A stretch of DNA of 64,000 bases from Gemmatimonadaceae bacterium (GCA_051859245.1 JBHYGA010000001.1:1533722-1597721), one strand, 5' to 3'. Shown: positions 13,216 through 41,324, counted from the stretch's first letter. Notes: generated by a model from the sequence alone, not told the origin. Translations and numbers: made by a program.

Positions 13216-13285
13216 TCACAATCACCTGACAGAAGCGCGGTCGGCGCTTGTAACCGAGCGCTGGCCGGGTTTAAGTTGGGAGCAC

Positions 13286-13358
13286 GCGGGAATAGCTCAG
13301 TTGGTAGAGCACAACCTTGCCAAGGTTGGGGTCGCGGGTTCGAGTCCCGTTTCCCGCT
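13286..13358 (+). tRNA. tRNA-Gly (GCC)
   Basis: GCGGGAA/TTCCCGC acceptor stem, D arm AGCTCAGTTGGTAGAGC, anticodon loop TT-GCC-AA, T loop GGTTCGAGTCC. CCA not encoded. Confidence 0.97.
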
Positions 13359-13382
13359 CTGTATGTTGTTTGTAGTTTCGGG

Positions 13383-13410
13383 AAGGGGAGCGGTGCATCA
13401 CCGCTCCTTT
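13383..13410 (+). other. Hairpin in the tRNA spacer (processing or partial termination)
   Basis: AAGGGGAGCGGTG ... CACCGCTCCTTT inverted repeat followed by a T-rich tract. Confidence 0.5.
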
Positions 13411-13423
13411 CGCGTTTTCGGTG

Positions 13424-13507
13424 GCCCGGATGGCGAAACCGGTAGACGCGGGGGCCTTAAAAGCCCCTGTCCGCAAGGACATGCGGGTTCGAGTCCCGCT
13501 TCGGGCA
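13424..13507 (+). tRNA. tRNA-Leu (TAA)
   Basis: GCCCGGA/TTCGGGC acceptor stem, GGGGC-CT-TAA-AA-GCCCC anticodon arm, long variable arm GTCCGCAAGGAC, T loop GGTTCGAGTCC. Confidence 0.96.
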
Positions 13508-13531
13508 CTCATCACCACGTAGGAGACCGGC

Positions 13532-13753
13532 TTGCGTACCGTTCGTGACTCTCAGGGCATCAACTGGATTTGTCTCGAGCTGCCGGAGGTCCCCGCCGAT
13601 TTTGTGGCGGCCGCGACCACGATTCAACCCCCGCCCGTTGCCGTCGAATGCAACTCCGGCGCCGATCGAGCCATTGTGTTGCTGGCAGAGGATTGGGCGG
13701 ACGCGTTATCCGATGACGGACTTGTTGAACATATCGCACGCGCATTGCGCTGA
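13532..13753 (+). CDS. Small hypothetical protein (73 aa)
   Basis: AGGAG RBS at 13521-13525 before a TTG start; protein-like composition; fills the gap between tRNA-Leu and pcs. Confidence 0.65.
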   Translation: MRTVRDSQGINWICLELPEVPADFVAAATTIQPPPVAVECNSGADRAIVLLAEDWADALSDDGLVEHIARALR

Positions 13754-13844
13754 TCCAGCGTTGTTACGGCATTGATCTTGCGCTGCTCCTCACTGAGCCA
13801 CAACGTGGCTCAGGTGCGCGTTCACGTCATGGCAAGGGGATGGG

Positions 13845-16800
13845 GTGGCTGCTTCTGGGGAGACGATTGGGCTCGCGGCGGTAACTCCGCCTGAGCCTCT
13901 GCGCAACGCGTTGCGCACACGGGAAGACTGGGAGGCCGCACGTGCGGCGTGCGAGGCCGATCCCGGTCGCTATCATGGCGACATTGCAGCACACACGCTG
14001 CATTGGTTCGACGCCTCCCTGGGCGAACATGGTGCGTGGATCACACACGATGAACACACCGGCGTGTGGTCTGGCTGGGACGCTCACACCTTGCAGCCTG
14101 TCGCTCCGTCGCGAGACGCGGCGTGGCGACCGTGGACGCGCGCGTTGAACGACGATGACGCGCCGTGGTACCGCTGGTTCGAAGGCGCGCTCACGAACGC
14201 GGGCTTCAACGAGGTTGATCGCCACGTACTCGCCGGCCATGGTGAAGAGCCTGCCTTTCTCGTCGAAGGCGATCGCTGGGATCAGTCACGCGACAACGGA
14301 CGCGGCGCACCTGTGGTGTCGTATCCCATCTCGCGCAAGGGACTGCTCGTCGATGTCGCGAAAGCAGCGCTCGCGTTGCGCGCACTTGGTTTGAAGACGG
14401 GCGATCGCATCGCGCTCAACCTGCCCAACATTCCGCAGCAGATTGCGTGGACTGAAGCAGCAAAGCGACTCGGCATTCTGTATACGCCCGTCTTCGGTGG
14501 CTTCTCGGACAAAACGCTCGCCGACCGCATTCATGACGCGGGCGCGCGCGTTGTGATTACCGCCGATGGCGGATGGCGCAACGCGCAGATCATTCCATTC
14601 AAGGCGGCCTACACCGATCCCGCGCTCGATCAGTACATCGCGGCGGATCGTGCCGTGCACGTCGTGCGTGACGCGCTCGGCGCGCTCTCACTTGACGCCG
14701 CGCAGGTTGAACTGATTGCGCGCAGTGCGGCCGAGGCCGTGGCTGGCGAAATTACCGTGGAACGGCGTGATGCAATGCGCGGTGTGGGTCGCGCGTTGCT
14801 CTCGCTCACGGAGTCTGGCGCGCTCAACGCGTCTGATGCGAGCCGAGTGCGCACGGCGGTCGCGCGGGCACTGGTCGACGCCGGTTCGGCGGTTGAGCGC
14901 GTCGTGGTGGTGAAGTACACCGCGCAAGCCGATGTGCCGTGGCGTGCGGGGCGTGATGTGTGGGAAGACGAACTGCTCGCGCCCGCCAGCGCCGCGTTGC
15001 TTGAGGCGGCGCGCGCGCTCGGACATCGCGTGTCCACCGAAGCGGAACTGCGTGAACTGTCCGACACCGATCTGGTTCGTGTGGTGTGGTCGGTGGTGCC
15101 TCCGGTTCCGGTGGACAGCGAGTTCCCGCTGTTCTTCATCTACACGTCAGGCTCTACTGGCAAGCCCAAGGGTGTCGTGCACGTGCACGGTGGATGGACC
15201 GCCGGTATTGCACACACCATGCGCATCGCGTTTGATGCACAGCCCGGCGATGTGATGTATGTGGTGGCAGATCCGGGATGGATTACCGGACAGAGCTACA
15301 TGATTTCGGCCGCACTGACCACGCGCACCACGAGCGTGCTCGCGGAAGGCGCGCCGGTGTTTCCGTCGGCCGGCCGGTTTGCATCGATCATTGAACGGTA
15401 CAACGTGCGCATCTTCAAGGCGGGTGTCACGTTCCTCAAGAGCGTGATGCAGGATCCGCAAAACGCCGAAGATGTGCAGCGCTATGATGTCTCGTCATTG
15501 CGTGTCGCCACGTTCTGCGCCGAACCCACATCGCCAACGGTGCAAGAGTTTGGCATGTCGCTGCTCACGCCCTGGTACATCAACTCGTACTGGGCCACGG
15601 AACATGGCGGCATTGTGTGGACGCACTTTTTTGGCAACGGCGATTTTCCGCTGCGTGCCGACGCACACACGTATCCGCTGCCGTGGGTGATGGGTGATGT
15701 GTGGCTGGCCGACGGCGTGCCAGATGCAGATGGTCGCTTCGCGCCGCGTGTGGCTGATGAAGGCGAGAAGGGCGAAGTCGTGATCACGGCGCCGTACCCG
15801 TATCTCGCGCGCACCATCTGGGGCGACGTTGGGTCGTTCACGGTGGACGGCCACTCGGTATCTTCCAGTTGGCGCGGTGACATTGATCGGTATCGCGCCA
15901 CATACTGGAGCCGGTGGCAGGGCCGCTGGGCGTACACACAAGGTGATTTCGCGGTGCGCTATCCCGACGGCGGGTTCTCACTGCACGGACGAAGTGATGA
16001 CGTGATTAATGTGTCCGGTCATCGCATGGGCACAGAGGAGATTGAAGGCGCCATTCTGCGCGACAAACAACTCAACGCCGATTCGCCAATCGGCAATGTG
16101 ATTGTTGTTGGCGCGCCGCATCGCGAGAAAGGCCTTACACCGCTCGCGTTCGTCACGATCGCCCCGGGGCGTCGACTCACGGCGGATGATCGTCGCCGCC
16201 TCATCGAACTTGTGCGTCAGGAAAAGGGCGCTGTAGCGGTGCCCGAAGATTTCCTTGAAGTGTCCGCGTTCCCGGAAACGCGCAGCGGCAAGTATGTGCG
16301 CCGACTGCTTCGCGCGCTCGTGGAGGATCAGCCACAGGGTGACCTGAGCACGCTGCGCAATCCGGAGTGTGTGCCCGCGCTGCAACGCGTGATTGGTGAA
16401 TGGAAAGCGCGTCAGCGTGTTCGCGAGTCGCAGCGCATTCTTGAACACGGTCGCTACTTCCGTGTGCAGTACCACACGGTGGCGCAGGTACATGGCGAGT
16501 CCGTTCGTATGGCGCTTGTGACGGTCACGAATGCACCTGTGAACGCGCTGAACGAACGCGCGCTGGATGAGCTGGTCACTGTGGTTGAACATTTGTCGCG
16601 TCGCAAAGACGTGGCCGCCGTTGTTTTCACCGGCGAAGGCACATCGTCTTTTGTGGCTGGCGCTGACATTCGTCAGCTGCTCGAAGATGTGCACACCGTT
16701 GAGGAAGCGGTCACGCTGCCAAACGTGGCCCATCTCGCGTTCCGCACGATTGAGCGCATGAACAAGCCGTGCATTGCCGCGATCAATGGTGTGGCGCTCG

Positions 16801-19331
16801 GTGGCGGTATGGAGTTCGCCCTCGCGTGTCATGTTCGGATCGCGGAACAGAAAGCACTGTTCGGACAGCCGGAGATTCGTTTGAATCTGCTGCCTGGTTA
16901 CGGCGGCACGCAGCGACTCACACGGTTACTCGCTGATCGTGATGGAATGGAAGGCGTTGTCCAGGCAGTGGAGATGCTCGTGGGCGGGCGCACCATCACC
17001 GCGCGCGAGGCCGCAGACATTGGTGTCGTCGACGAAGTGGTTACCGATGCGCAGGATGTCGTGGCGCATGCATCGGCCCTCGTGCGTGACTACATCGCCG
17101 ACCGCGAACAGAGCAAACTTGGCAAGGCATTTCGCCACGTACGCGAACGACGCGAAGCGTGGGAGAAGCCTGGCGCGCTTGATGTGCGCCAGGCGTTCGC
17201 GTTGCCACCTGTGGTGCGGTTGCTGGAGCAAGCCGAACGTGTCGGTCGCGCTGCGCATGTTGCGCGCGTGCTTGATGCCGTCGAAACGGGATGGCGTGAA
17301 GGGCTGGTCTCCGGCCTCGCACATGAAGCGAAGCTGTTTGCATCCGCGGTGGTCGATCCTGAAGCAGGCAAGGCAGGCATTCGCGCGTTCTTCGATCGCG
17401 CCAGTGCGCCGCTCCCCGTGCGACGCGGTGCGATTGTTGATGCGGCCCAGGAAGCCGAACTCGCCGCCCGAGGGGACTTGTTACCGGTTGGTGCCCCGTT
17501 CTTCCCGGGGCTCACCGCCATTCCCACCTGGCAGTACGGTCTTGGTGTCATCAAAGACCCGCACACTGGCGCACCGCGACATGGTGAGCCGGCCCAGGTT
17601 GAACAGCAGGTGGTTGTGCCGGTAGAAACACCGGGTCCGAATGACGTGCTGCTCTACGTCCTCGCGTCTGAAGTGAACTTCAACGACATCTGGGCGATTA
17701 CGGGCATTCCCGTGTCGCCGTTTGATTCCCACGATCGTGATGTACAAGTCACCGGTTCCGGCGGCGTTGGACTGGTGGCATCAATCGGCGACGCGGTGAA
17801 AGCCGAAGGACGCGTGCGTGTTGGCGATCTTGTCACGATCTACTCGGGGCAGAGCAGTTTGCTGTCACCGCTCGCCGGTCGTGATCCAATGTCGGCTGAC
17901 TTCCGCATTCAGGGCTACGAAACGTTTGAAGGCAGTCACCAACAGTTTCTGTTGGTGCAGGCGCCGCAGTGTCATCCGCTGCCGCCCGATGTCACGTTGG
18001 AAGCAGCCGGTTCGTACATCTTGAATCTCGGCACCATCATTCGTGCGCTGTTTACCACGCTGCAAATCACTGGCGGCCGCACGATGTTCGTCGAAGGTGC
18101 GGCCACGGGCACCGGGCTTGAAGCGCTCAAGACCGCCGTCGCGCATGGTCTGAAGGTCACCGGACTCGTCTCGAGCGAAGACCGTGCACACACCGTGAAG
18201 TCCTTCGGTGCAACGGGCGCGATCAACCGCCGAAGCGCAGGCATTTCGGACTGCTTCACGATGGTACCCGGCGACGCCGCGTCGATCGCCAGGTGGGAAG
18301 CCGCCGGACAACCGTTGCTCGAAGCGTTCCGCGCGCAACACGATGGAAAGCTCGCAGACTACGTTGTCTCGCACGCCGGTGAACAGTCGTTTCCGCGCAG
18401 CGTGCAACTGCTGGCCGACGGCGGCTCCCTTGCCTTCTACGGAGCGTCTACCGGCTACCATTTCACCTTTGCGGGCAAGCCAGGCGCAGTGAGTGTGAAC
18501 ACGATGTACGAACGCGCTGGCCTTGTGGCCGGTGAAGCCGTGCTCGTGTACTACGGACCTGGGCTCGCCGCTGACGCATTGGTCGACGCCATCGGCATTG
18601 AAGCCATTGAGGCTGCGGCCGCACGACGCGCACGCATTGCGGTAGTGTGTTACACCGACGCGCAACGCGAGTTTGTGCGTTCGCTTGGCTTTGGCGATCA
18701 ACTCGCTGGCGTCGTCGCGCTTGATGAACTGCGCCGCCGCGCGAGTATGGAGTTCGATTGGCCGAGTACGATGCCGCCGCTGCCAGATGTTCGACGCGAC
18801 TCCATCGCATTCAAGGAAGCAGTGCGCGCATTTCAGGAGCGCACGATCAAGCCGCTTGGCCAGGCCGTGGGCAAACTGCTGCGTTCCTCCGACAATCCGC
18901 GTGGTGCGCCCGACCTGATCTTCGAACGTGCGGCACACGATGCCCTCGCCGCGTCCACCGCATTGGTGCAACCGTTCAGTGGCCGCATTGTGTACGCAGA
19001 AGACATGCACCACAAGCGATACAGTTTTTACGCCCCACAAGTCTGGATGCGTCAGCGACGCATTCTGCTCCCCACGTGCAGCATTCTCGGCACTCATCTC
19101 TGCAACGCCTACGAGGTTGTCCGCATGAATCAGATGCTCGCCGCAGGTCAACTCGACGTTACGGCACCGACGGTAGTGCCGTGGAATGACTTGCCGGAAG
19201 CGCATCAGGCCATGTGGGAGAATCGCCACACGGGTGCGACATACGTGGTGAATCACGCGTTGCCCGCGACCGGACTACGATCGCGCGATGAACTGTACGA
19301 GGCGTGGGCCTCAGGGAGCGCCAACGTATGA
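13845..19331 (+). CDS. pcs: Trifunctional propionyl-CoA synthase (3-hydroxypropionyl-CoA synthetase / dehydratase / acrylyl-CoA reductase)
   Basis: 1828 aa in three domains: acyl-CoA synthetase (YTSGSTGKPKG, YWATEHGG, GRSDDVINVSGHR, PETRSGK), crotonase (AGADI, GGGMEFALAC, QPEIRL) and MDR enoyl-CoA reductase (SEVNFNDIWA, GYET, GAATGTG, GTHLCNAYE). Size and domain order match Chloroflexus/Erythrobacter Pcs. Confidence 0.93.
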   Translation: MAASGETIGLAAVTPPEPLRNALRTREDWEAARAACEADPGRYHGDIAAHTLHWFDASLGEHGAWITHDEHTGVWSGWDAHTLQPVAPSRDAAWRPWTRALNDDDAPWYRWFEGALTNAGFNEVDRHVLAGHGEEPAFLVEGDRWDQSRDNGRGAPVVSYPISRKGLLVDVAKAALALRALGLKTGDRIALNLPNIPQQIAWTEAAKRLGILYTPVFGGFSDKTLADRIHDAGARVVITADGGWRNAQIIPFKAAYTDPALDQYIAADRAVHVVRDALGALSLDAAQVELIARSAAEAVAGEITVERRDAMRGVGRALLSLTESGALNASDASRVRTAVARALVDAGSAVERVVVVKYTAQADVPWRAGRDVWEDELLAPASAALLEAARALGHRVSTEAELRELSDTDLVRVVWSVVPPVPVDSEFPLFFIYTSGSTGKPKGVVHVHGGWTAGIAHTMRIAFDAQPGDVMYVVADPGWITGQSYMISAALTTRTTSVLAEGAPVFPSAGRFASIIERYNVRIFKAGVTFLKSVMQDPQNAEDVQRYDVSSLRVATFCAEPTSPTVQEFGMSLLTPWYINSYWATEHGGIVWTHFFGNGDFPLRADAHTYPLPWVMGDVWLADGVPDADGRFAPRVADEGEKGEVVITAPYPYLARTIWGDVGSFTVDGHSVSSSWRGDIDRYRATYWSRWQGRWAYTQGDFAVRYPDGGFSLHGRSDDVINVSGHRMGTEEIEGAILRDKQLNADSPIGNVIVVGAPHREKGLTPLAFVTIAPGRRLTADDRRRLIELVRQEKGAVAVPEDFLEVSAFPETRSGKYVRRLLRALVEDQPQGDLSTLRNPECVPALQRVIGEWKARQRVRESQRILEHGRYFRVQYHTVAQVHGESVRMALVTVTNAPVNALNERALDELVTVVEHLSRRKDVAAVVFTGEGTSSFVAGADIRQLLEDVHTVEEAVTLPNVAHLAFRTIERMNKPCIAAINGVALGGGMEFALACHVRIAEQKALFGQPEIRLNLLPGYGGTQRLTRLLADRDGMEGVVQAVEMLVGGRTITAREAADIGVVDEVVTDAQDVVAHASALVRDYIADREQSKLGKAFRHVRERREAWEKPGALDVRQAFALPPVVRLLEQAERVGRAAHVARVLDAVETGWREGLVSGLAHEAKLFASAVVDPEAGKAGIRAFFDRASAPLPVRRGAIVDAAQEAELAARGDLLPVGAPFFPGLTAIPTWQYGLGVIKDPHTGAPRHGEPAQVEQQVVVPVETPGPNDVLLYVLASEVNFNDIWAITGIPVSPFDSHDRDVQVTGSGGVGLVASIGDAVKAEGRVRVGDLVTIYSGQSSLLSPLAGRDPMSADFRIQGYETFEGSHQQFLLVQAPQCHPLPPDVTLEAAGSYILNLGTIIRALFTTLQITGGRTMFVEGAATGTGLEALKTAVAHGLKVTGLVSSEDRAHTVKSFGATGAINRRSAGISDCFTMVPGDAASIARWEAAGQPLLEAFRAQHDGKLADYVVSHAGEQSFPRSVQLLADGGSLAFYGASTGYHFTFAGKPGAVSVNTMYERAGLVAGEAVLVYYGPGLAADALVDAIGIEAIEAAAARRARIAVVCYTDAQREFVRSLGFGDQLAGVVALDELRRRASMEFDWPSTMPPLPDVRRDSIAFKEAVRAFQERTIKPLGQAVGKLLRSSDNPRGAPDLIFERAAHDALAASTALVQPFSGRIVYAEDMHHKRYSFYAPQVWMRQRRILLPTCSILGTHLCNAYEVVRMNQMLAAGQLDVTAPTVVPWNDLPEAHQAMWENRHTGATYVVNHALPATGLRSRDELYEAWASGSANV

Positions 19332-22300
19332 GCGACACCACAGCAACGGCCGCTGACCGACGCCGAGCGCCACGCGGTCGACTGGCGGGAAGAGTCGTGC
19401 TGCTCACCGGTGCCGCCGGCAACATCGGAACGCAGATTTCACGGCAGCTACTGCGAGAAGGCGCAACGCTTGTCATGAGCGGCCGGGATCAGGCACGCCT
19501 CGACGCCGCGAAGGCCGCGCTGCGTGAAGAGTTGCACGTACCGGCCACGCGAATACTCACGGTGGTAATGGACGGCGCCGAGCCTGGACAGGTGCGTGTC
19601 GGCGTTGAGCAGGTGATGGCCAAAGCGGGACGCATCGATGTACTCGTGAACAACGCGGGTTCGGCTGGACCAAAGTGTCGACTGCGCGATGTACCGTTCA
19701 CCGCCGGTGAGCTTGAAGCGCTGGCCGAAGTTGGTGTGCACGAGAAGGAAACGGTGAGCGCGGCGGCGCGCAATTTGTTTGGCATTGCGTGGAATCTCGT
19801 GCGTGCCTGCGTGCCGCACATGAAGCCTGGCAGCACCATCATCAACGTCTCCACCATCTTCTCTCGCACGCAGTACTACGGACGCTCGGCGTACGTTGTG
19901 CCCAAGGCGGCCCTGAACAGCTTCTCCAAGCAGCTCGCGGCCGAGGTTGGACCACTCGGCATTCGCGTGAATACCGTCTTCCCTGGGCCGATTCGCTCGG
20001 AGCGAATTCGCACGGTGTTCTCAGCCATGGACAAGTTGCGTCATGCGGAGGACGGCACCACCGCGCGAGAAAACTTCGATCTCATGACACTCGCGCGCTC
20101 GGTGAATGGCGAACCACCGGAGCGAACGTTCCCGAGCGTTGAAGACGTTGCGAACACGATCGTGTTCCTGTCGTCTGACGAATCCGCGGCGTACAACGGG
20201 CACAATTTCGAAGTCACGCACGGCATGCGCGTGCGTCAGGAGTCTCGCAGTACATGGGTCTCACGTCCTGAACTGCGGACTGTCGATGGGTCCGGCGTGC
20301 GCGTCTTGCTGGCCGCTGGTGATCAGGTCAAGGACGCGCTCACCGTGGCACGCGTGCAGGCCGGTTGTGGTGCCGAAGTCGTACTCGGACTCGGCTCCGA
20401 GGAAGGCGTGCAGGCGGCGCAGGAAGCGCTCGGCGCCAATCCGGGAGACGAACGCATTCGCCCGGTACTGCTGGATCGCATGCGCCCTGAAACGGTGGAC
20501 AGCCTCTTCGAAACGCTGCGCCATGAAGACGCGCTCGTGCACGGGGCGATCATCATGCCGGCGTTTGGCGCGTGGCGCTTTCGCGGTCGGTTCACGGATG
20601 CATCAGACAGCGACGTCTCCACGTTCATTGACGGTGAAATCGCGGGCACCATGTTGCTGGCACGTGCACTGACGGTGTTCTGGAAGGATGTGGAGCACGA
20701 GCTCAGCATGCCGCCGAGCATTGCGTTCGTCACGAACGGTGACGATGGAGCGGGGAACAACTACGCCGACGTACTGCGCGCGGCGACGGAAGAGTTGTGT
20801 CGCGTCTGGCGTGATGAAACCGAGGTACAACAGGCATCAGGCGAGCGTCGTTTCGAAGAGTGGTCGAACCAGATCATTCGCTGGGGGAATCGCGAGCCAG
20901 AAGAGGTGCCATTCGCGGCGGGACAGGCCGCGCGGTTGCTGTACACGCGGCGTCGAATTCGTCAGGTGAATCTCTATCTGCCGCTGTCGATCGTACGCGC
21001 CACCGGATCACGTCGCTCGTCGTTCGGGTGGATGGAGAACGTGATGGGGCTGCACCTCGGCAAGGTTGCGCTCATCACGGGCGGTAGTGCGGGTATTGGT
21101 GGTCAGTTGGCGCGGCTGCTCGCCATTGGTGGCGCGCGCGTCATGCTCGTGGCGCGACGCGCTGATCAGCTCAAGGAAATGCGCGACGGCATTGTGACCG
21201 AACTGGAAGATATCGGCTACTACGACGCGCCCGATCGCGTGCAATGCGTGGCCGATGTTGATGTCGCCGATGAGGCGAGTCTGCGCCGCGCGGTTGACGA
21301 AACACTCGCCGCGTTCGGGCGCGTGGATTATCTGGTCAACAACGCCGGCGTGGCTGGCGCGGAACAGATGGTTGTGGACATGGACGTCGAAACGTGGCGA
21401 AACACGCTGAACGCGAATCTCGTGTCGAACTATTCGTTGATCGAGAAGATTGTCCCGATCATGAAGCGGCAGGGCAGTGGATACATTCTCAACGTATCTT
21501 CGTATTTTGGTGGCGAGAAGTACATCGCGGTTCCGTATCCCAATCGGGCGGACTACGCCGTCTCCAAGGCGGGTCAGCGCGCGCTTACCGAGAATCTTGC
21601 CCGGTTTGTCGGGCCGGAGATTCAGGTGAATGCGATTGCGCCGGGTCCGGTTGATGGTGATCGACTGCGCGGAGTTGGTGGCAAACCCGGTCTCTTCGAG
21701 CGTCGTGGCAAGCTCATTCTTGAGAATCGTCGACTGAACGCAGTGTACAAGGCGGTCATCGATGCGCTGCGCGGCGGCGCGCTCGTCACCAACGTGCTCG
21801 CGCTTGTGCAAGGCAACGATGTAGACGCCATCGCCACCGACGAAAGCGCGCCAGCCGCACTTCGCAAACTCGCCGAGAGTATTCGCGCGGAATCACTTGC
21901 GGCCGACACTGAAGCCAGCTCCGGCCGTTTTCTCATGACGCGGAGCATCGCACAGCGTCTCGTCGCGCGGTTGCGCCTCGGCGGGCGCTTTCTCGCATTG
22001 CCGGCGGATGCACCGCAGTATGGCGACGAGTGGATCCTCGCGATTCCCGACGCGGTGGAGCCGTTTATCGATCGCGATCAGATCAAGCGCGAAGCGAGCA
22101 AAATCGGCAAGGGAGTGCTGAGCATGCTGCACTTGCGCAACATGCCGGGCGAGCTCGAGGTCGCACTTGCCACGGTGTACTTTCTCGCGGACCGCGCTGT
22201 TTCCGGAGAGACGTTCCAGCCGTCGGGAGGTTTGCATCAGGAGCGCACCATCACCGAGCGAGAACTGTTTGGCCGTGCCAAGCCCGAGCGCATTGCGCGG

Positions 22301-23026
22301 ATGGCGCAGCAAACGATCTGGCTGGTGGGCGACTACCTGTATCCGCATCTCGCGCGCGCGGCTCGCCTGGCGCTGGAGTACAGCCATGTCGGCCGCATCA
22401 TGCTGCTCACACGCACACCCGAGGCGGCGGCGCAAACCCAGGACTTGCTCCGTATTGTGCTCGGCAATGAACGGGTGCACAGCATTGTGGTGGGTGATGA
22501 TCTCGACGCGGGCATGGACGAGGCACTGCGTGTGGGCGGACAGCCGGCCGCTGTTGTATCAACGCCGTTCGAGCCACTCCCGCGAGAACTCTTCAATGCC
22601 GATGGGTCTGCGGCGCTCGATGCGGCGGGCTTTGCGTCGCTTGTTGAGGAGCACCTGACCCATCACTTCCGCGTGGCGCGCAAAGTGTCGTTGTTTGACG
22701 ACGTGCGTTTGGTACTCGTGTCGCCAGACGTACCGGTGCATCCAACGCACGCCGAGTTCGCCCTGGCAAACTTTGTGAAAACCACCTTGCACGCGCTCAC
22801 CGCCACTCTCGGCGTGGAGAACGAGCGTCTGGTGCACAACGTGCCGGTCAACCAGATCAACCTCACGCGTCGTGTGCGCTCGGAAGAGCCGCGTGACGCC
22901 CGTGAGCAGGCAGAAGAACAGGAGCGCTTTGCCCACGCCGTGTTGCTTGCCAGCGCCCCGTTGCCAGACCAGGAAGACAGCCGATATCGGTCGCGAATCT
23001 ATCGCGGTCTCGCGATCACGGTGTGA
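19328..23026 (+). CDS. mcr: Bifunctional malonyl-CoA reductase (malonyl-CoA to 3-hydroxypropionate)
   Basis: About 1230 aa with two SDR modules: TGAAGNIG/NNAG/YYGRSAYVVPK and TGGSAGIG/NNAG/YPNRADYAVSK. C-terminus RIYRGLAITV resembles Chloroflexus Mcr. ATGA overlap with pcs. Confidence 0.93.
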   Translation: MSDTTATAADRRRAPRGRLAGRVVLLTGAAGNIGTQISRQLLREGATLVMSGRDQARLDAAKAALREELHVPATRILTVVMDGAEPGQVRVGVEQVMAKAGRIDVLVNNAGSAGPKCRLRDVPFTAGELEALAEVGVHEKETVSAAARNLFGIAWNLVRACVPHMKPGSTIINVSTIFSRTQYYGRSAYVVPKAALNSFSKQLAAEVGPLGIRVNTVFPGPIRSERIRTVFSAMDKLRHAEDGTTARENFDLMTLARSVNGEPPERTFPSVEDVANTIVFLSSDESAAYNGHNFEVTHGMRVRQESRSTWVSRPELRTVDGSGVRVLLAAGDQVKDALTVARVQAGCGAEVVLGLGSEEGVQAAQEALGANPGDERIRPVLLDRMRPETVDSLFETLRHEDALVHGAIIMPAFGAWRFRGRFTDASDSDVSTFIDGEIAGTMLLARALTVFWKDVEHELSMPPSIAFVTNGDDGAGNNYADVLRAATEELCRVWRDETEVQQASGERRFEEWSNQIIRWGNREPEEVPFAAGQAARLLYTRRRIRQVNLYLPLSIVRATGSRRSSFGWMENVMGLHLGKVALITGGSAGIGGQLARLLAIGGARVMLVARRADQLKEMRDGIVTELEDIGYYDAPDRVQCVADVDVADEASLRRAVDETLAAFGRVDYLVNNAGVAGAEQMVVDMDVETWRNTLNANLVSNYSLIEKIVPIMKRQGSGYILNVSSYFGGEKYIAVPYPNRADYAVSKAGQRALTENLARFVGPEIQVNAIAPGPVDGDRLRGVGGKPGLFERRGKLILENRRLNAVYKAVIDALRGGALVTNVLALVQGNDVDAIATDESAPAALRKLAESIRAESLAADTEASSGRFLMTRSIAQRLVARLRLGGRFLALPADAPQYGDEWILAIPDAVEPFIDRDQIKREASKIGKGVLSMLHLRNMPGELEVALATVYFLADRAVSGETFQPSGGLHQERTITERELFGRAKPERIARMAQQTIWLVGDYLYPHLARAARLALEYSHVGRIMLLTRTPEAAAQTQDLLRIVLGNERVHSIVVGDDLDAGMDEALRVGGQPAAVVSTPFEPLPRELFNADGSAALDAAGFASLVEEHLTHHFRVARKVSLFDDVRLVLVSPDVPVHPTHAEFALANFVKTTLHALTATLGVENERLVHNVPVNQINLTRRVRSEEPRDAREQAEEQERFAHAVLLASAPLPDQEDSRYRSRIYRGLAITV

Positions 23027-23088
23027 GGGAAAAAACCACGTAGTTTTCGGGGCGTTGCGAGGCTTGCCAAGGCATTACTTTACGCCTC

Positions 23089-24084
23089 ATGACAGACGTC
23101 GTTGCACTCGCCACTGAATTGCTTTCCATCGACTCGTCCACCGGCCGCGAACGCGAGGCGGTGGACGTGGTTGGCCGCTGGCTCGTTGCCCGGGGGTGGA
23201 ACGTCACCCTGCAGGAAGTCGAGCCCGGTCGCAGTAATGTCTGGGCCACCCGTGCGGGGGGCGGAGTCACGCTCTCCACGCACCTGGATACCGTTCCGCC
23301 CTATATCGCGCCGCGGCTCGATGACGGCCGGCTGTACGGTCGCGGCGCCTGCGACGCCAAGGGCATTGCCGCGGCTATGCTTGTGGCCGCGCAGCAGCTC
23401 GCGGACTCCGGCGAAGAGCGTGTTGACCTGCTCTTTGTGGTCGGCGAAGAAAAGGGGTCTCCGGGTGCTCGCGCGGCCAACCGGTTGCCCGCCACCAGCA
23501 AGTGGCTGGTGAACGGCGAGCCCACCGAAAGCAAGCTGGCATCCGGCGCGAAAGGCGCGCAGCGCGTGATTGTGCGTGTGCGCGGACGCGAAGCGCATTC
23601 GGCGTACCCTGAGTTTGGCAGCAGTGCCCTCGATCCGTTGCTCGCGCTGTTGCCGCAAGTGCGCGATCTGCCGCTGCCGAGTGATCCGGTGCTCGGCATG
23701 ACCACGAGCAACATTGGTGTACTGCGCGCCGGTACCGAAGCGAACGTTATTCCTGGCCTCGCCGAGGCGGAAATCATGATTCGGCTCGTTGGCGACATCG
23801 CGCCGGTCAAGCAGGTCTTTGAAGACTGGGCCAAGGGCCGCGCCGAGTTGGAATGGGGCTCGTTCATTCCGGCGCAGCGCTTTCATACGATCGAAGGATT
23901 TGACGTGGCACCGGTCGCATTCACCACCGATATCCCCCTGCTGAATCGTTGGGGCACGCCATTGTTGTTTGGACCCGGCTCCATTCACGTGGCGCACACG
24001 CCAGACGAACACATTGCCGTGTCTGAGTTGCGCGACGCGGTATCGGCCTACGTGCGCATTGTGGAGGCACTGCTCGCAACATGA
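23089..24084 (+). CDS. M20 family deacylase (ArgE/DapE-like; likely succinyl-DAP desuccinylase by context)
   Basis: HLDTVP, GRGACDAKG, GEE, GEPT and AHTPDE metal-binding motifs; first gene of the dap operon. Confidence 0.85.
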   Translation: MTDVVALATELLSIDSSTGREREAVDVVGRWLVARGWNVTLQEVEPGRSNVWATRAGGGVTLSTHLDTVPPYIAPRLDDGRLYGRGACDAKGIAAAMLVAAQQLADSGEERVDLLFVVGEEKGSPGARAANRLPATSKWLVNGEPTESKLASGAKGAQRVIVRVRGREAHSAYPEFGSSALDPLLALLPQVRDLPLPSDPVLGMTTSNIGVLRAGTEANVIPGLAEAEIMIRLVGDIAPVKQVFEDWAKGRAELEWGSFIPAQRFHTIEGFDVAPVAFTTDIPLLNRWGTPLLFGPGSIHVAHTPDEHIAVSELRDAVSAYVRIVEALLAT

Positions 24085-29026: not shown

Positions 29027-29028
29027 TC

Positions 29029-37980: not shown

Positions 37981-38028
37981 GGTGTGCTGGATTAAAGAGA
38001 CTGCGGGGACATCTTGCACACCCAGACG

Positions 38029-38044
38029 GCAAGTCGCGTGCCAA
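38029..38044 (-). promoter_or_regulatory. Sigma-54 (-24/-12) promoter of the PEP-CTERM gene
   Basis: Minus strand reads TTGGCACG-CGAC-TTGC, an exact match to TGGCACG-N4-TTGC, about 50 nt upstream of the ATG. Confidence 0.85.
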
Positions 38045-38251: not shown

Positions 38252-39796
38252 ATGTCAATGCGCGAGAAACTCGACCGGCTGGCCGCCGCAAGCGTGGCCG
38301 CAGAACAGGGCGGTGGCGCTGAACGCCTCGCGGCCCAGCACGCCAAAGGAAAGCTGTCGGCCCGCGAGCGGCTCGACGTACTGCTCGACGAAGGCTCCTT
38401 CACCGAACTCGATCGCTTCGTCACGTCGCGATCACTGGGCGAGGGCGAGGCGCCCATCTATGGCGATGGTGTGGTCACCGGCTACGGCCGGATCGACGGG
38501 CGGCTGGTGTACGTCTTTTCGCAGGACTTCACCGTGTTTGGCGGCTCGTTGTCCGAAGCGCACGCGGGCAAGATCTGCAAAGTGATGGACCTCGCCATGC
38601 GAAACGGCGCGCCGGTTATTGGCCTCAACGACTCCGGCGGCGCGCGCATTCAGGAAGGCGTGGTGTCGCTGGGTGGCTATGCCGACATCTTTTTGCGCAA
38701 CACGATGGCGAGCGGTGTGATTCCGCAGATCTCGGCGATTCTCGGCCCGTGTGCCGGCGGGGCCGTGTATTCACCGGCGATCACCGATTTCATCTATATG
38801 GTGCGCAAAACGAGCTACATGTTCGTGACCGGGCCGAATGTGGTGAAGACGGTCACACACGAAGACGTCACGATGGAACAGCTTGGTGGCGCGGATACGC
38901 ATGCGTCAACAAGTGGCGTTGCGCATTTTGCACACGATTCAGAACTCGAGAGCTTGCACGCGATTCGCCAACTGTTCCGCTTTATTCCAAGCAACAATGT
39001 TGACGATGCGCCGCGCGGTGCAGGCACTGATCCCGCAACACGTCGCGATGAAGCACTGCTCGACCTGGTGCCGGATCATCCGAATCAGCCGTATGACATG
39101 CGCGAAGTGCTGCGCCGCATTGTTGACGATGGCGACTTCTACGAAGTGCAGCCGGACTACGCCGCGAATATCCTGGTTGGCTTCGCACACCTGGGCGGTC
39201 AGAGCGTGGGCATTGTGGCCAATCAACCAGCCGTGCTCGCAGGTGTGCTCGATATTGACGCGTCACTCAAGGCCGCACGCTTTGTGCGATTCTGTGACTG
39301 CTTCAATATTCCGATTATCACGTTTGAAGACGTGCCCGGATTCCTGCCCGGTGTAACGCAGGAGCACGGCGGCATTATCAAGCACGGCGCCAAGCTGCTG
39401 TACGCGTACTGCGAAGCCACGGTGCCCAAGCTCACCGTGATCACGCGCAAAGCGTACGGTGGGGCATATGACGTGATGAGCTCCAAACACATTCGCGGCG
39501 ATGTGAATCTCGCCTGGCCCACGGCCGAGATCGCGGTGATGGGTGCAAAGGGCGCCGTGGATATTCTGTATCGCAAGGAGATTGCCTCGGCGGACGATCC
39601 TGCGGCAGCCATGGACGCACGCGTTGCCGAATACACGGAAAAGTTTGCCAATCCGTACAACGCCGCGGCACGTGGTTATGTGGATGATGTCATTGATCCG
39701 CGCGACACACGACCGCGGTTGATTGACGCGTTGCAGACGCTGCGGGGCAAGCGCGATCGGAATCCGCCGCGCAAGCACGGCAATCTTCCGCTCTGA
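38252..39796 (+). CDS. pccB: Acyl-CoA (propionyl-CoA-type) carboxylase carboxyltransferase subunit
   Basis: [43 protein letters not shown] and KHGNLPL motifs. Confidence 0.93.
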
Positions 39797-39803
39797 GCCG
39801 CGC

Positions 39804-41324
39804 ATGTTCAACAAGGTGTTGATCGCCAATCGAGGCGAAATCGCGTTGCGCGTCGTGCGCGCCTGTCAGGAACTCGGCGTGCGCTCGGTGGCCGTGTACT
39901 CCGAAGCCGACGCGCGTGCGCCGCATGTGCGTGAAGCTGACGAAGCGGTATGCATTGGACCGCCGCCGTCGAGTCAGAGTTATCTGCTCGGTGACAAGCT
40001 GATCGAAGTCGCGCTGAAGACCGGCGCCGAGGCGATTCATCCGGGCTACGGATTTCTTTCTGAGCGCGCCTGGTTTGCTCGCGCCGTGCGTGAGGCGGGA
40101 CTCGTGTTTGTGGGGCCTCCAGCGGAAGCCATTGAAGCCATGGGCAGCAAGACTGCCGCGCGACAACTGGTGATCGCCGCTGGCGTGCCCGTGGTGCCCG
40201 GCACCACCACCGCGTTGCGCGATGCAAACGAAGCAGCCGCGATTGCCAACACGTTCGGCTATCCGGTGCTCTTGAAAGCCGCCGCTGGCGGTGGTGGCAA
40301 AGGCATGCGCGTGGTGCGCGCGGCCTCGGAGTTGGAGTCGGCGTTAGCCTCGGCACAACGGGAAGCGCAGAATGCGTTTGGCGATGACGCCGTGTACGTG
40401 GAAAAATACATTGACGGCCCGCGTCACGTGGAAGTACAGGTGCTCGCGGATATGCATGGCAACGTGCTGCATCTTGGTGAACGCGAATGCTCCTTGCAGC
40501 GGCGGCATCAGAAGATGCTCGAGGAAGCGCCTAGTCCTGCAGTGTCAGCGGAGTTGCGCGCACGCATGGGTGAAACAGCGGTCGCCGCGGCGCGTGCGGC
40601 CGGGTATGTGAACGCTGGCACGTGCGAGTTTCTGCTCGACCGCGACGGCCAGTTCTATTTTCTCGAGATGAATACGCGCATTCAGGTGGAGCATCCGGTC
40701 ACCGAACTGGTAATGGGGCTCGACCTGGTGCAGTGGCAGCTCCGTATTGCGGCGGGCGAGCATCTGCCCTTTGAGCAAAAGTCGTTCACGCCGCGCGGTT
40801 GGGCGATTGAGTGTCGCATTACCAGCGAAGATCCAGCCAACGGATTCCTGCCGAGCACGGGTCGCATTACGCATTTGCATCTGCCGAGCGGTCCGGGTGT
40901 GCGCTGGGATGGCGGCATTGAAGCGGGCAGCGAAGTCGGGCTGCACTACGACCCGATGCTGGCCAAGCTGATCGTGCACGCCCCCAATCGGGCGTTGGCG
41001 ATATCGCGCATGCAACGCGCGTTGCGCGAGTTGGTGATTGATGGTGTAGAAACATCGCGTGGTTTTCACCTGCGCTTGCTGGATCATCCGGATGTGCGGA
41101 GTGGCGACATGACCATTCAGTGGCTCGAAGCGCACCTTGATGAATTGACCACGCGCTCCGCGCCGGACGAGACGATTCGCGTCGCGGCGATTGCGGCCGC
41201 ACTGGCGGCGCAGCACGACCGTCAGGAGCGTGCGATACCCACTGTCGCGGATAGCGCGCAGGCGGAAGTGCACGGCGCCAGCTGGCGAGCCGTGGCGCGC
41301 CGAGAAGGTTTGCGTCGCGAATGA
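39804..41324 (+). CDS. accC: Biotin carboxylase subunit
   Basis: LIANRGEIA, HPGYGFLSE, GGGGKGMR, ECSLQRRHQK and EMNTRIQVEH motifs; no C-terminal biotinyl domain. Confidence 0.93.
   Translation: MFNKVLIANRGEIALRVVRACQELGVRSVAVYSEADARAPHVREADEAVCIGPPPSSQSYLLGDKLIEVALKTGAEAIHPGYGFLSERAWFARAVREAGLVFVGPPAEAIEAMGSKTAARQLVIAAGVPVVPGTTTALRDANEAAAIANTFGYPVLLKAAAGGGGKGMRVVRAASELESALASAQREAQNAFGDDAVYVEKYIDGPRHVEVQVLADMHGNVLHLGERECSLQRRHQKMLEEAPSPAVSAELRARMGETAVAAARAAGYVNAGTCEFLLDRDGQFYFLEMNTRIQVEHPVTELVMGLDLVQWQLRIAAGEHLPFEQKSFTPRGWAIECRITSEDPANGFLPSTGRITHLHLPSGPGVRWDGGIEAGSEVGLHYDPMLAKLIVHAPNRALAISRMQRALRELVIDGVETSRGFHLRLLDHPDVRSGDMTIQWLEAHLDELTTRSAPDETIRVAAIAAALAAQHDRQERAIPTVADSAQAEVHGASWRAVARREGLRRE

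What the first reader, a model, noticed from the sequence alone, without database searches (positions are those of the whole stretch)
13845..23026. Coupled pcs-mcr operon: both signature enzymes of the 3-hydroxypropionate bi-cycle in a Gemmatimonadota-like genome
Seen: a 1828-aa synthetase/crotonase/reductase fusion overlaps by ATGA with a roughly 1230-aa double-SDR protein. Both YxxxK catalytic motifs (YVVPK, YAVSK) and both Gly-rich cofactor loops are intact. Known: Mcr and Pcs convert malonyl-CoA to 3-hydroxypropionate to propionyl-CoA in the Chloroflexus aurantiacus 3-HP bi-cycle, and partial sets also occur in heterotrophs such as Erythrobacter. Inference: with the biotin carboxylase operon at 38-43 kb, this gives a bicarbonate-fixing acetyl-CoA to methylmalonyl-CoA route. 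It could serve autotrophy or mixotrophy, acetate/3-HP co-assimilation, or act as an NADPH sink. The glyoxylate-branch genes (mcl, mch, mct, meh) and smtAB are not in this window, so a full cycle is not shown.
Basis: partly seen in the sequence, partly recalled or inferred. Interest (0 to 1): 0.9.

Follow-up and report, generated by a model that had tools for sequence, protein, structure and literature searches.

The report
Pcs-Mcr operon in phototrophic Gemmatimonadaceae
Two overlapping giant genes encode genuine propionyl-CoA synthase and malonyl-CoA reductase, and the rest of this light-harvesting bacterium's genome holds the other genes of the Chloroflexus-type 3-hydroxypropionate CO2-fixation bi-cycle, a combination that genome surveys have already reported for this group but nobody has tested in the laboratory.

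Summary
Window 13845-19331 encodes a 1828-aa ligase/dehydratase/reductase fusion that aligns end to end with solved propionyl-CoA synthase (6EQO, 2419 bits). Window 19328-23026 (ATGA overlap) encodes a 1232-aa malonyl-CoA reductase that aligns end to end with solved enzymes (8HI4, 1187 bits). All 13 published catalytic and binding residues visible in the printed alignment are conserved.

The genome is a 99.9%-complete Gemmatimonadaceae. It also carries smtA-smtB-mct-mcl-mch plus a divergent meh on another contig, epimerase, mutase with MeaB, PpdK, pufLM and acsF, so the gene set for a full bi-cycle is present.

Isocitrate lyase, Ccr, NiFe hydrogenase, SoxB and form-I CO dehydrogenase were not found. 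I therefore favour light-assisted mixotrophic C2/C3 assimilation with bicarbonate co-fixation over lithoautotrophy.

The pair sits in a variable site directly after tRNA-Gly and tRNA-Leu. The site is empty in a non-phototrophic congener, and the pair is missing from it in another phototroph. In a 201-genome family sample, Mcr was found in 14 of 26 pufLM-positive genomes and 3 of 175 others.

The window's carboxylase is housekeeping. Occurrence in Gemmatimonadales is already published (PMC9802188; a 2026 preprint), and this scan had already noted the glyoxylate module of the same genome. This is a further member of a known kind, of moderate interest.

The parts
13286..13359 (+). tRNA-Gly(GCC), the first of two tRNA genes that precede the variable site
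   Evidence: Rfam tRNA 71.5 bits; ARAGORN. The same pair is found in G012, G211 and G179.
13424..13508 (+). tRNA-Leu(TAA), the left border of the pcs-mcr-bearing variable site
   Evidence: Rfam 56 bits; ARAGORN. In G012 this tRNA lies 13 nt from the M20 gene, which is the empty site.
13532..13753 (+). orf73, a small conserved gene of unknown function directly upstream of pcs (TTG start, 73 aa)
   Evidence: tblastn finds it upstream of pcs in the Gemmatimonadaceae loci. 19 of 19 copies keep an open frame of 73-75 codons. Codon-position diversity is 0.249/0.228/0.558. AlphaFold2 pLDDT is 96.7. No Pfam family and no fold match.
13845..19331 (+). pcs: propionyl-CoA synthase, 1828 aa. Ligase domain about 14349-16292, enoyl-CoA hydratase domain about 16509-17096, reductase domain about 17634-18455.
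   Evidence: Pfam domains. PDB 6EQO 2419 bits over residues 23-1825. Domain coordinates.
19328..23026 (+). mcr: bifunctional malonyl-CoA reductase, 1232 aa. Its ATG overlaps the pcs stop (ATGA at 19328-19331).
   Evidence: PDB 8HI4 1187 bits and 8HJW 1181 bits, both full length. [quoted passage not shown]
23077..23088 (+). 12-nt spacer before the M20 gene, the right border of the insert. The same spacer follows tRNA-Leu directly in the empty site of G012.
   Evidence: Sequence comparison printed.
23089..24084 (+). M20 (DapE/ArgE-type) deacylase gene, the first gene of the conserved right flank (then asd, lysC, dapB, dapA, dapD)
   Evidence: Pfam, NCBIfam, synteny.
38252..39796 (+). Acyl-CoA carboxylase carboxyltransferase subunit (PccB/MmdA type). 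Housekeeping; a possible supplier of the carboxylation steps.
   Evidence: PF01039 654 bits. TIGR01117 797 bits, below its cut-off of 999. Present in 13 of 13 panel genomes.
39723..41324 (+). Biotin carboxylase (AccC type). ORF limits are given; family matches start at residue 28.
   Evidence: TIGR00514 637.5 bits, over its cut-off of 626.5; Pfam.
42729..43262 (+). Biotin carboxyl carrier protein
   Evidence: PF00364 58.5 bits. It holds the only E-A-M-K-M-type motif found in six-frame ORFs of the genome.

Best explanation
The two genes are true orthologues of propionyl-CoA synthase (Pcs) and bifunctional malonyl-CoA reductase (Mcr), and their ATGA overlap suggests translational coupling. Mcr reduces malonyl-CoA with 2 NADPH to 3-hydroxypropionate. 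Pcs activates, dehydrates and reduces that to propionyl-CoA. Other genes in the genome complete the gene set of the Chloroflexus-type 3-hydroxypropionate bi-cycle. These are a housekeeping biotin carboxylase system, methylmalonyl-CoA epimerase and mutase, and a second locus with smtA-smtB-mct-mcl-mch plus meh. The host is an aerobic anoxygenic phototroph of the Gemmatimonadaceae. Inferred, not shown: the pathway most likely runs as a light-supported mixotrophic route. It would assimilate acetate, propionate, 3-hydroxypropionate and glyoxylate-yielding substrates while co-fixing bicarbonate. It would be the cell's only recognisable C2-assimilation route, rather than a basis for lithoautotrophic growth. 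The pair lies in a variable site next to tRNA-Leu, was inherited within the family and has been lost repeatedly.
For: Identity:
- Pcs matches 6EQO at 2419 bits over residues 23-1825, with ligase, ECH and reductase domains.
- Mcr matches 8HI4 and 8HJW at 1187 and 1181 bits over its full length.
- RfxMCR residues T165, Y172, R175, Y178, K182, S731, Y743, R746, Y749, K753, R785, L795 and R799 (PMC10470521, passages read) are all identical in the alignment.

Rest of the pathway in the same genome:
- mcl: 664 and 662 bits to 6KIN and 4L7Z.
- mct: 650 bits to 8APQ, named '2-methylfumaryl-CoA isomerase'; TIGR04253 683 bits.
- mch: 533 bits to 4E3E.
- meh candidate: 200 bits to itaconyl-CoA hydratase 8KHG; atlas neighbour '3-methylfumaryl-CoA hydratase' at 0.98.
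- SmtA and SmtB fall in 90%-identity clusters that JGI names succinyl-CoA:(S)-malate CoA-transferase A and B.
- Epimerase over its cut-off; two mutase catalytic subunits plus MeaB; PpdK 1300 bits.

Phototrophy: pufL and pufM; acsF 461 bits.

Mixotrophy rather than lithoautotrophy. In this 99.87%-complete genome the following were not found:
- isocitrate lyase;
- Ccr over its cut-off;
- NiFe hydrogenase;
- SoxB over its cut-off;
- form-I CoxL.

Linkage:
- One Gemmatimonas-labelled MAG (L030) has all eight specific genes in one 16-kb cluster.
- All 12 Mct-positive genomes of the family sample are also Mcr-positive.
- Mcr is found in 14 of 26 pufLM-positive and 3 of 175 pufLM-negative sampled genomes.
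Against: - No activity, expression or labelling data exist. No RNA run holding the locus was listed.
- Fumarase-like and SdhA-like genes score below the equivalog cut-offs that I tried.
- Meh rests on a 200-bit match to a related hydratase and on gene position.
- Only three electron-donor systems were screened. Sulfide, iron and organic donors were not, so autotrophy is not excluded.
- A complete gene set is what an autotroph would have, and PMC9802188 reads it that way.
- ICL and Ccr were also not found in 4 of the 5 Mcr-negative panel genomes; one of these, G102, has an ICL match. Their absence is therefore not specific to carriers.
- 12 of 26 pufLM-positive sampled genomes lack Mcr, so phototrophy in this family does not require it.
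- Related genomes are not independent, so the association counts overstate.
Confidence: 0.62

Rival explanations
1. Full photoautotrophy. The complete bi-cycle fixes CO2 for net growth in the light, as in Chloroflexus. Reducing power would come from a donor that I did not screen, or from reverse electron flow.
For: All pathway-specific genes are present, together with pufLM, acsF and PpdK. PMC9802188 proposes autotrophy for two Gemmatimonadales MAGs. An earlier scan note (e1-7738422, not tested here) reports an NADH-linked Rieske/cytochrome b operon in this genome that could in principle feed NAD(P)H.
Against: NiFe hydrogenase, SoxB and form-I CoxL were not found in this genome. The RuBisCO-like gene is below every cut-off tried. 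According to the 2026 preprint, freshwater phototrophic Gemmatimonadota are reported as obligate photoheterotrophs. [quoted passage not shown]
Confidence: 0.17
2. Only the Mcr-Pcs half matters. It would act as an NADPH/redox valve, or as a route to use or detoxify 3-hydroxypropionate and acrylate, as proposed for marine aerobic phototrophs with partial gene sets. The glyoxylate module would serve a separate catabolic role.
For: Five Mcr-positive sampled genomes gave no Mct match: G005 95%, G048 81%, G092 74%, G187 90% and G215 85% complete. pcs-mcr and the glyoxylate module lie on different contigs here. Partial sets are described for Porphyrobacter and Erythrobacter (PMC10674011, passages read).
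Against: All 12 Mct-positive genomes are Mcr-positive. L030 joins all eight genes in one cluster, and Burkholderiales/Rhodocyclaceae loci join mcr to mct, smtAB, mcl and mch. This argues for one functional unit.
Confidence: 0.16
3. The proteins are look-alike multidomain SDR and acyl-CoA synthetase fusions with other substrates, and are not Mcr or Pcs.
For: NCBIfam has no dedicated model. The best rows are generic: FabG, AcsA and Ccr, mostly below their cut-offs. A separate group of Mcr-like proteins at 32-36% identity exists.
Against: Both proteins give end-to-end alignments at E = 0 to solved enzymes, and the catalytic residues are conserved. The window protein falls inside a 33-row clade, with the Chloroflexaceae-type representative as its sister and the Mcr-like group outside.
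Confidence: 0.03

Closest known systems
3-hydroxypropionate bi-cycle of Chloroflexus aurantiacus / Roseiflexus castenholzii (Mcr, Pcs, SmtAB, Mcl, Mch, Mct, Meh)
   Same: The same enzyme set with the same domain architectures. Mcr aligns over its full length to 8HI4 and 8HJW. Mcl, Mct and Mch score 533-664 bits against solved chains. I recall from memory that those chains come from these two organisms. The host has a type-2 reaction centre.
   Different: Mcr is only about 51% identical to the Chloroflexaceae-type representative P0169. pcs and mcr are fused into one overlapping operon here; their separation in Chloroflexus is recalled, not checked. The host is an aerobic Gemmatimonadaceae with acsF. 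No inorganic electron-donor system was found among the three screened.
Pcs of PDB 6EQO and the Mcr fragments 6K8S/6K8V. I recall these as Erythrobacter sp. NAP1 and Porphyrobacter dokdonensis, aerobic anoxygenic phototrophic Alphaproteobacteria with partial gene sets.
   Same: These are the best-scoring solved relatives per residue. Pcs gives 2419 bits. The Mcr C-terminal half gives 809 bits to 6K8S against 738 to 8I6Z. The N-terminal half gives 571 bits to 6K8V against 446 to 8HI6. The lifestyle is the same: aerobic bacteriochlorophyll phototrophy.
   Different: This genome also has the whole glyoxylate module, smtAB-mct-mcl-mch plus meh. For Porphyrobacter, PMC10674011 states that there is no full carbon fixation pathway.
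Gemmatimonadales MAGs with all 3HP bi-cycle genes (Garritano et al. 2022, PMC9802188), and freshwater Gemmatimonadota with mcr and mcl markers (bioRxiv 10.64898/2026.09.02.748891)
   Same: The same order and phylum, and the same pathway call. The glyoxylate-salvage genes are clustered there too.
   Different: This report adds points that I did not find in the passages read. They are: a near-complete genome; the overlapping pcs-mcr pair at a tRNA-Leu-adjacent variable site, with empty and partly emptied sites in relatives; the conserved orf73; the link to pufLM within the family; and the absence of ICL, Ccr and three donor systems. I did not open the supplements of either paper. They may cover some of this.

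Membership tests
Bifunctional malonyl-CoA reductase (Chloroflexus type, four tandem SDR domains) | Single chain of about 1220 aa that aligns over all four SDR domains to a solved Mcr | tested here: met
   Residues 26-1240 of P0002 align to residues 6-1229 of 8HI4 at 1187 bits; 8HJW gives 1181 bits.
Bifunctional malonyl-CoA reductase (Chloroflexus type, four tandem SDR domains) | SDR1 alcohol-dehydrogenase site: Thr165-Tyr178-Lys182, plus Tyr172 and Arg175 (RfxMCR numbering, PMC10470521) | tested here: met
   The stretch STIFSRTQYYGRSAYVVPK aligns to STIFSRTDYYGRIAYVAPK. All five residues are identical.
Bifunctional malonyl-CoA reductase (Chloroflexus type, four tandem SDR domains) | SDR3 aldehyde-dehydrogenase site: Ser731, Tyr743-Arg746 pair, Tyr749, Lys753, and Arg785, Leu795, Arg799 of the extra domain | tested here: met
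   All eight residues are identical in the alignment blocks printed.
Bifunctional malonyl-CoA reductase (Chloroflexus type, four tandem SDR domains) | Arg1164 of SDR4 (malonyl-CoA binding) | not tested
   The printed alignment was cut before this position.
Bifunctional malonyl-CoA reductase (Chloroflexus type, four tandem SDR domains) | [quoted passage not shown] | not testable with these tools
   This needs an enzyme assay.
Propionyl-CoA synthase (trifunctional fusion) | One chain with acyl-CoA ligase, enoyl-CoA hydratase and enoyl-CoA reductase domains in that order | tested here: met
   AMP-binding at 169-650 and 745-816, ECH_1 at 889-1084, ADH_N/ADH_zinc_N at 1264-1537.
Propionyl-CoA synthase (trifunctional fusion) | End-to-end similarity to the solved enzyme | tested here: met
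   6EQO gives 2419 bits, query 23-1825 against chain 23-1843. The next hit (Acs) gives 273 bits.
Propionyl-CoA synthase (trifunctional fusion) | Formation of propionyl-CoA from 3-hydroxypropionate, ATP, CoA and NADPH | not testable with these tools
   This needs an enzyme assay.
Complete 3-hydroxypropionate bi-cycle | Trifunctional malyl-CoA/beta-methylmalyl-CoA/citramalyl-CoA lyase (Mcl) of the Chloroflexus type | tested here: met
   L048:9217-10260(-) gives 664 and 662 bits to 6KIN and 4L7Z, against 208 bits to 4L9Y. Members of its 90%-identity cluster are named malyl-CoA/(S)-citramalyl-CoA lyase.
Complete 3-hydroxypropionate bi-cycle | Mesaconyl-C1-CoA hydratase (Mch) and intramolecular mesaconyl-CoA transferase (Mct) | tested here: met
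   Mch gives 533 bits to 4E3E and 438 bits to 8HGN. Mct gives 650 bits to 8APQ. TIGR04253 scores 682.7, just under its cut-off of 725.
Complete 3-hydroxypropionate bi-cycle | Mesaconyl-C4-CoA hydratase (Meh) | tested here: inconclusive
   P0153 (297 aa) is transcribed divergently from smtA. It gives 200 bits to itaconyl-CoA hydratase 8KHG, matches PF13452, and has an atlas neighbour cluster '3-methylfumaryl-CoA hydratase' at 0.98. It was not compared with a characterised Meh.
Complete 3-hydroxypropionate bi-cycle | Succinyl-CoA:(S)-malate CoA-transferase SmtA/SmtB | tested here: met
   Two family-III CoA-transferase genes lie upstream of mct. Members of their 90%-identity clusters are named SmtA and SmtB by JGI. 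These names are annotation, not assay.
Complete 3-hydroxypropionate bi-cycle | Acetyl-CoA and propionyl-CoA carboxylation, methylmalonyl-CoA epimerase and mutase | tested here: met
   Four carboxyltransferase matches, biotin carboxylase and a biotin carrier. Epimerase at 131 bits, over its cut-off of 115. Two mutase subunits plus MeaB. Which carboxylase takes which substrate is unknown.
Complete 3-hydroxypropionate bi-cycle | Succinate dehydrogenase and fumarate hydratase | tested here: inconclusive
   Full-length SdhA-like matches (348 and 338 bits) and FumC-like matches (451 and 446 bits) are below the cut-offs of the two models tried.
Complete 3-hydroxypropionate bi-cycle | Use for autotrophic growth (an inorganic electron donor, net CO2 fixation) | tested here: not met
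   NiFe hydrogenase, SoxB and form-I CoxL were not found in G000. Other donors were not screened, and growth cannot be tested here. This lowers 'autotroph', not 'uses the pathway'.

The most novel reading that the evidence does not exclude
Phototrophic Gemmatimonadaceae that carry pcs-mcr plus the glyoxylate module may be the first bacteria outside Chloroflexota to run a complete 3-hydroxypropionate bi-cycle. They would do so in air, powered by a proteobacterial-type reaction centre, so part of the freshwater 'photoheterotrophs' would really be photomixotrophic or facultatively photoautotrophic CO2 fixers. The small conserved orf73 gene in front of pcs would be a lineage-specific accessory or regulator of this module.
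Probability: 0.17. Interest if true: 0.85.

Novelty: new member of a known kind. Interest (0 to 1): 0.45.

Why it matters
The 3-hydroxypropionate bi-cycle has been shown to work only in Chloroflexota. Aerobic anoxygenic phototrophs are counted as heterotrophs in freshwater carbon budgets. A complete, apparently vertically kept gene set in a phototrophic Gemmatimonadaceae makes the published survey claim directly testable, because an Mcr homologue is also recorded under the name of the cultured Gemmatimonas groenlandica. The tests would be enzyme assays, 13C labelling and light/dark growth on C2 and C3 substrates. If flux is shown, light-driven bicarbonate co-assimilation by this group would have to be added to lake carbon models. 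The oxygen-tolerant enzymes would also interest pathway engineers. If not, the genes are a further case of partial or cryptic use, as in marine Erythrobacter-like bacteria.

Tried and rejected
- **Expression.** The look-up of sequencing runs listed no RNA holder of the locus: 4 runs, 2 holding part of it, one of them possibly the source. I did not lay reads.
- **Regulatory signals.** The promoter and terminator scan of 13000-24200 gave 1 promoter-like site against 2.5 expected, and 9 terminator-like sites against 9.5 expected. The Rfam scan of 13000-14100 found only the two tRNAs.
- **Attachment-site repeats.** The longest exact repeats between the two junction regions are 9 bp; two such pairs were found, ACCACGTAG at 13514 and 23035 and CCCGTTGCC at 13634 and 22957. 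By my estimate that is about what chance gives (roughly 0.3 expected per such comparison). No integrase was seen.
- **Recent transfer by composition.** The insert has GC 0.624 and the window 0.624. GC3 is 0.68-0.72 for pcs and mcr, against 0.69-0.72 for neighbouring genes. There is no signal.
- **orf73.** No Pfam family at E <= 1. No Foldseek match at E <= 0.001. Best VIA-align Z is 3.9.
- **RuBisCO.** The single PF00016 match (128 bits) is below all NCBIfam cut-offs. I rejected it as a Calvin-cycle enzyme.
- **Naming of cluster representatives.** The listing of cluster members named few of the 50%-identity Mcr representatives.
- **Zarzycki and Fuchs 2011 (PMC3165406).** The paper is not held, so what I say about it comes from citations in other papers and from recall.
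- **GlcD.** The GlcD-like gene scores 477 bits, below its cut-off of 568, and is present in all 6 genomes tested. This says nothing either way about glycolate use.

Full report
**What is there.**
- The window holds a 1828-aa ORF at 13845-19331 and, overlapping it, a second long ORF ending at 23026.
- The bases at the junction read gtATGAgc. The ATG at 19328 therefore overlaps the stop TGA at 19329-19331, and the second product is 1232 aa.
- Pfam finds AMP-binding, AMP-binding_C, ECH_1 and ADH_N/ADH_zinc_N in the first protein, and two SDR stretches in the second.
- NCBIfam has no dedicated model for either protein. It gives only generic rows (AcsA, Ccr, FabG), mostly below their cut-offs.

**Identity of Pcs.** Against all PDB sequences, the first protein aligns over residues 23-1825 to 6EQO at 2419 bits. 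The next hit is an acetyl-CoA synthetase at 273 bits. I recall 6EQO as the Erythrobacter sp. NAP1 propionyl-CoA synthase; I did not read that paper.

**Identity of Mcr.**
- The second protein aligns over its full length to 8HI4 (1187 bits) and 8HJW (1181 bits).
- Its halves match 6K8S (C-terminal, 809 bits) and 6K8V (N-terminal, 571 bits) better than the corresponding fragments 8I6Z (738 bits) and 8HI6 (446 bits).
- PMC10470521 is the Roseiflexus castenholzii MCR structure paper. It holds the code 8HI4, and I read passages of it.
- The paper names T165-Y178-K182 with Y172 and R175 in SDR1. In SDR3 and the extra domain it names S731, Y743, R746, Y749, K753, R785, L795 and R799.
- All thirteen residues are identical in the alignment printed. 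R1164 lies beyond the printed part.

**The organism.**
- The window is C1:1533722-1597721 of a 4.70-Mb, 11-contig genome with 62% GC, rated 99.87% complete.
- The nearest Mcr loci in public genomes carry Gemmatimonadaceae, Gemmatimonadales or Gemmatimonas MAG titles.
- The genome has pufL and pufM (345 and 335 bits). It has acsF 12 kb away from them (461 bits).
- The organism is therefore a bacteriochlorophyll phototrophic member of the family with the aerobic cyclase.

**The rest of the pathway.** On contig C4 (locus L048) one strand carries, in order:
- smtA (409 aa) and smtB (408 aa);
- mct: 650 bits to 8APQ, '2-methylfumaryl-CoA isomerase'; TIGR04253 683 bits against a cut-off of 725;
- mcl: 664 and 662 bits to 6KIN and 4L7Z, against 208 bits to the Rhodobacter-type 4L9Y;
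- mch: 533 bits to 4E3E.

These assignments rest.
- The 90%-identity clusters of the two transferases contain JGI entries named succinyl-CoA:(S)-malate CoA-transferase subunits A and B. The lyase cluster is named malyl-CoA/(S)-citramalyl-CoA lyase.
- Transcribed divergently from smtA is a 297-aa FAS1_DH_region protein. It gives 200 bits to itaconyl-CoA hydratase 8KHG, and its language-model neighbours include a '3-methylfumaryl-CoA hydratase' cluster. I take it as Meh but count it as not proven.

Elsewhere in the genome:
- methylmalonyl-CoA epimerase, 131 bits, over its cut-off;
- two mutase catalytic subunits, one next to MeaB;
- PpdK, 1300 bits;
- AccA-like, AccD-like and two PccB-like carboxyltransferases;
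- SdhA-like and FumC-like genes that stay under the cut-offs of the models I tried.

The single RuBisCO_large match is below every NCBIfam cut-off, so it is form IV-like.

**The carboxylase in the window.**
- The locus has a carboxyltransferase (38252-39796), a biotin carboxylase (39723-41324), a TRAM/methyltransferase gene and a biotin carrier (42729-43262).
- The carboxyltransferase occurs at 81-98% identity in 13 of 13 panel genomes, including five without Mcr.
- It is housekeeping. It may supply the carboxylations, but it is not part of a pcs-mcr module.

**What the genome lacks.**
- In G000 I found no isocitrate lyase.
- I found no crotonyl-CoA carboxylase/reductase over its cut-off. The only strong match is the Pcs reductase domain itself.
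- I found no NiFe hydrogenase, no SoxB over its cut-off (best 97 bits against 550) and no form-I CoxL.
- Neither of the two C2-assimilation routes I screened (the glyoxylate shunt and the ethylmalonyl-CoA pathway) is recognisable, so the bi-cycle is the only one I can see.
- None of the three lithotrophic donor systems screened is present. This is why I rank mixotrophy above autotrophy.
- ICL and Ccr were not found in 4 of the 5 Mcr-negative panel genomes either; G102 has an ICL match.
- Sulfide, iron and other donors were not screened.

**Locus anatomy and history.**
- Two tRNA genes lie between the conserved 609-aa gene at 11386-13215 and pcs. They are tRNA-Gly(GCC) at 13286-13359 and tRNA-Leu(TAA) at 13424-13508.
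- G012 belongs to the same genus and is 93% complete. It has no full-length pcs, no mcr, no pufLM and no mct. There the same tRNA-Leu sits 13 nt from the M20 gene, and the 12-nt spacer found there also ends the insert in the window.
- The insert is therefore about 13509-23076. It consists of orf73, pcs and mcr.
- G179 belongs to another genus and is a closed 5.31-Mb genome. Its site holds an RtcB-like gene, orf73, pcs and mcr.
- G211 belongs to the same genus as G179 and is a closed 4.72-Mb genome that is pufLM-positive. Its site holds unrelated ORFs plus orf73 right next to the M20 gene, but no pcs or mcr. I read this as loss of the pair.
- Of 24 Gemmatimonad-titled loci, 20 show pcs directly followed by mcr. 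The other 4 are cut at a contig end or were filtered by my 50%-coverage rule.
- Of the same 24 loci, 13 show the whole order: 609-aa gene, pcs, mcr, M20 gene.
- L019 has other flanks.
- L030 has pcs-mcr-meh-smtA-smtB-mct-mcl-mch in one 16-kb cluster.
- Composition gives no sign of recent transfer.

**Distribution.**
- With Pcs as query, high-identity matches occur in 11 of 14 other genomes of the genus, in 1 of 10 genomes of other genera of the family, and in 0 of 16 genomes of sister families. The tool's tally of 38 of 41 includes acetyl-CoA synthetase paralogues at about 40% identity.
- In an evenly drawn sample of 201 family genomes, 17 have Mcr, 26 have pufLM and 12 have Mct. I assume the three samples are the same set, because the lists of withheld bases agree.
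- My hand cross-tabulation of the listed handles gives Mcr in 14 of 26 pufLM-positive genomes and in 3 of 175 pufLM-negative genomes (G145, G187, G215).
- All 12 Mct-positive genomes are Mcr-positive. Five Mcr-positive genomes, 74-95% complete, gave no Mct match.
- Related genomes are not independent, so I make no test.
- The unpublished genome G021 enters these tallies only as one row without a full-length match.

**Tree.**
- I built a quick IQ-TREE (LG+G4, SH-aLRT only) of 41 Mcr rows. I left out L035, L037, L038, L041 and L042 as partial, and L043 as not an Mcr.
- The tree puts the window in a 24-row Gemmatimonadaceae group (support 86).
- That group is sister to a 9-row group (support 100) in which L030 joins Steroidobacteraceae, Acidibacter and Burkholderiales/Rhodocyclaceae sequences.
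- The representative that scores 1732 bits to 8HJW is sister to both groups (support 98).
- Mcr-like proteins of 32-36% identity serve as the outgroup.
- The program warns of long branches. No named Alphaproteobacteria were available. I take from the tree only that the window's protein lies inside the Mcr clade, and that at least one exchange between Gemmatimonadaceae and Proteobacteria is likely.

**Literature.**
- bioRxiv 10.64898/2026.09.02.748891 (passages read) detects the markers in mostly freshwater Gemmatimonadota and calls for validation.
- Term searches inside five Gemmatimonadota-focused papers found no 'hydroxypropionate' or 'malonyl'. The papers are PMC7844134, PMC10581226, PMC9426454, PMC8779627 and PMC12817894.
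- PMC11316326 found no complete autotrophic pathway in marine MAGs. It states that there is no physiological confirmation of autotrophy in the phylum.
- I opened no supplements. They may list more genomes or the gene order.

**Verdict.**
- A complete bi-cycle gene set is present in a phototrophic Gemmatimonadaceae.
- Function in vivo is untested. Light-assisted mixotrophy is the best-supported reading.
- The phylum-level occurrence is in print, so this is a further, well-resolved member of a known kind.

Noticed in passing
window 13532-13753 (+): orf73 is a 73-aa gene with a TTG start, conserved directly upstream of pcs in the Gemmatimonadaceae loci. It is also kept next to the M20 gene in G211, which lacks pcs-mcr. 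19 of 19 copies have open frames, and third-codon-position diversity is 0.56 against 0.25 and 0.23. Invariant residues include W12, C14, E16, E39, C40 and N41. AlphaFold2 pLDDT is 96.7, with a strand-strand-helix-strand-strand-helix-helix layout. It has no Pfam family and no fold match. Atlas neighbours are Gemmatimonadota hypothetical proteins.
   Followed up: partly
window 13286-13508, with L058, L059 and L060: The site downstream of tRNA-Gly(GCC) and tRNA-Leu(TAA) is a variable spot. It is empty in G012. It holds 3.1 kb of ORFs without a Pfam family in G211, and an RtcB-like ligase gene plus orf73-pcs-mcr in G179.
   Followed up: partly
L030:4391-20426: A Gemmatimonas-titled MAG contig carries pcs, mcr, meh, smtA, smtB, mct, mcl and mch as one contiguous cluster. 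Its Mcr groups with proteobacterial sequences rather than with the window's group. This looks like a transferable whole-pathway island.
   Followed up: partly
L011, L012 and L038 (Burkholderiales / Rhodocyclaceae MAG contigs): Here mcr follows mct, and smtA-smtB-mcl-mch are transcribed divergently from them. No pcs lies within the fetched flanks.
   Followed up: no
P0178-P0196 (representatives): A group of about 15 cluster representatives, 1100-1280 aa long, aligns over nearly the whole Mcr at only 32-36% identity. It lies outside the Mcr clade in the tree. Function is unknown. The Binatia locus L043 (31%) may belong to it.
   Followed up: no
whole genome; window 42729-43262: Only one canonical biotin-attachment motif (E-A-M-K-M type) was found in all six-frame ORFs of at least 60 aa, although four carboxyltransferase genes are present. 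Several carboxylases may share a single carrier protein. The regular expression could miss variants.
   Followed up: partly
window 11386-13215 (+) and 9609-11288 (-): Two conserved large genes (609 and 559 aa) have no Pfam or NCBIfam family. They are 72-85% and 40-62% identical in G012, G211 and G179, and they always flank the tRNA pair.
   Followed up: no
window 28924-31050 (+): One 708-aa ORF joins EPSP synthase (AroA) and cytidylate kinase (Cmk) domains.
   Followed up: no
window 31061-32431 (-) and 37228-38457 (-): A HipA-like kinase gene (HipA_C, 155 bits) and a 409-aa protein ending in a PEP-CTERM motif.
   Followed up: no
G000 C1:982839-984125 (-): A RuBisCO large-subunit-like gene scores below all cut-offs: type III 187 against 497, OiaX 185 against 700, DK-MTP-1-P enolase 158 against 409. 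It is probably a form IV RuBisCO-like protein.
   Followed up: partly
G000 C1:1650211-1655921: meaB, a mutase catalytic subunit and a divergent second PccB-like carboxyltransferase (TIGR01117, 363 bits) lie together. This may be the dedicated propionyl-CoA branch.
   Followed up: no
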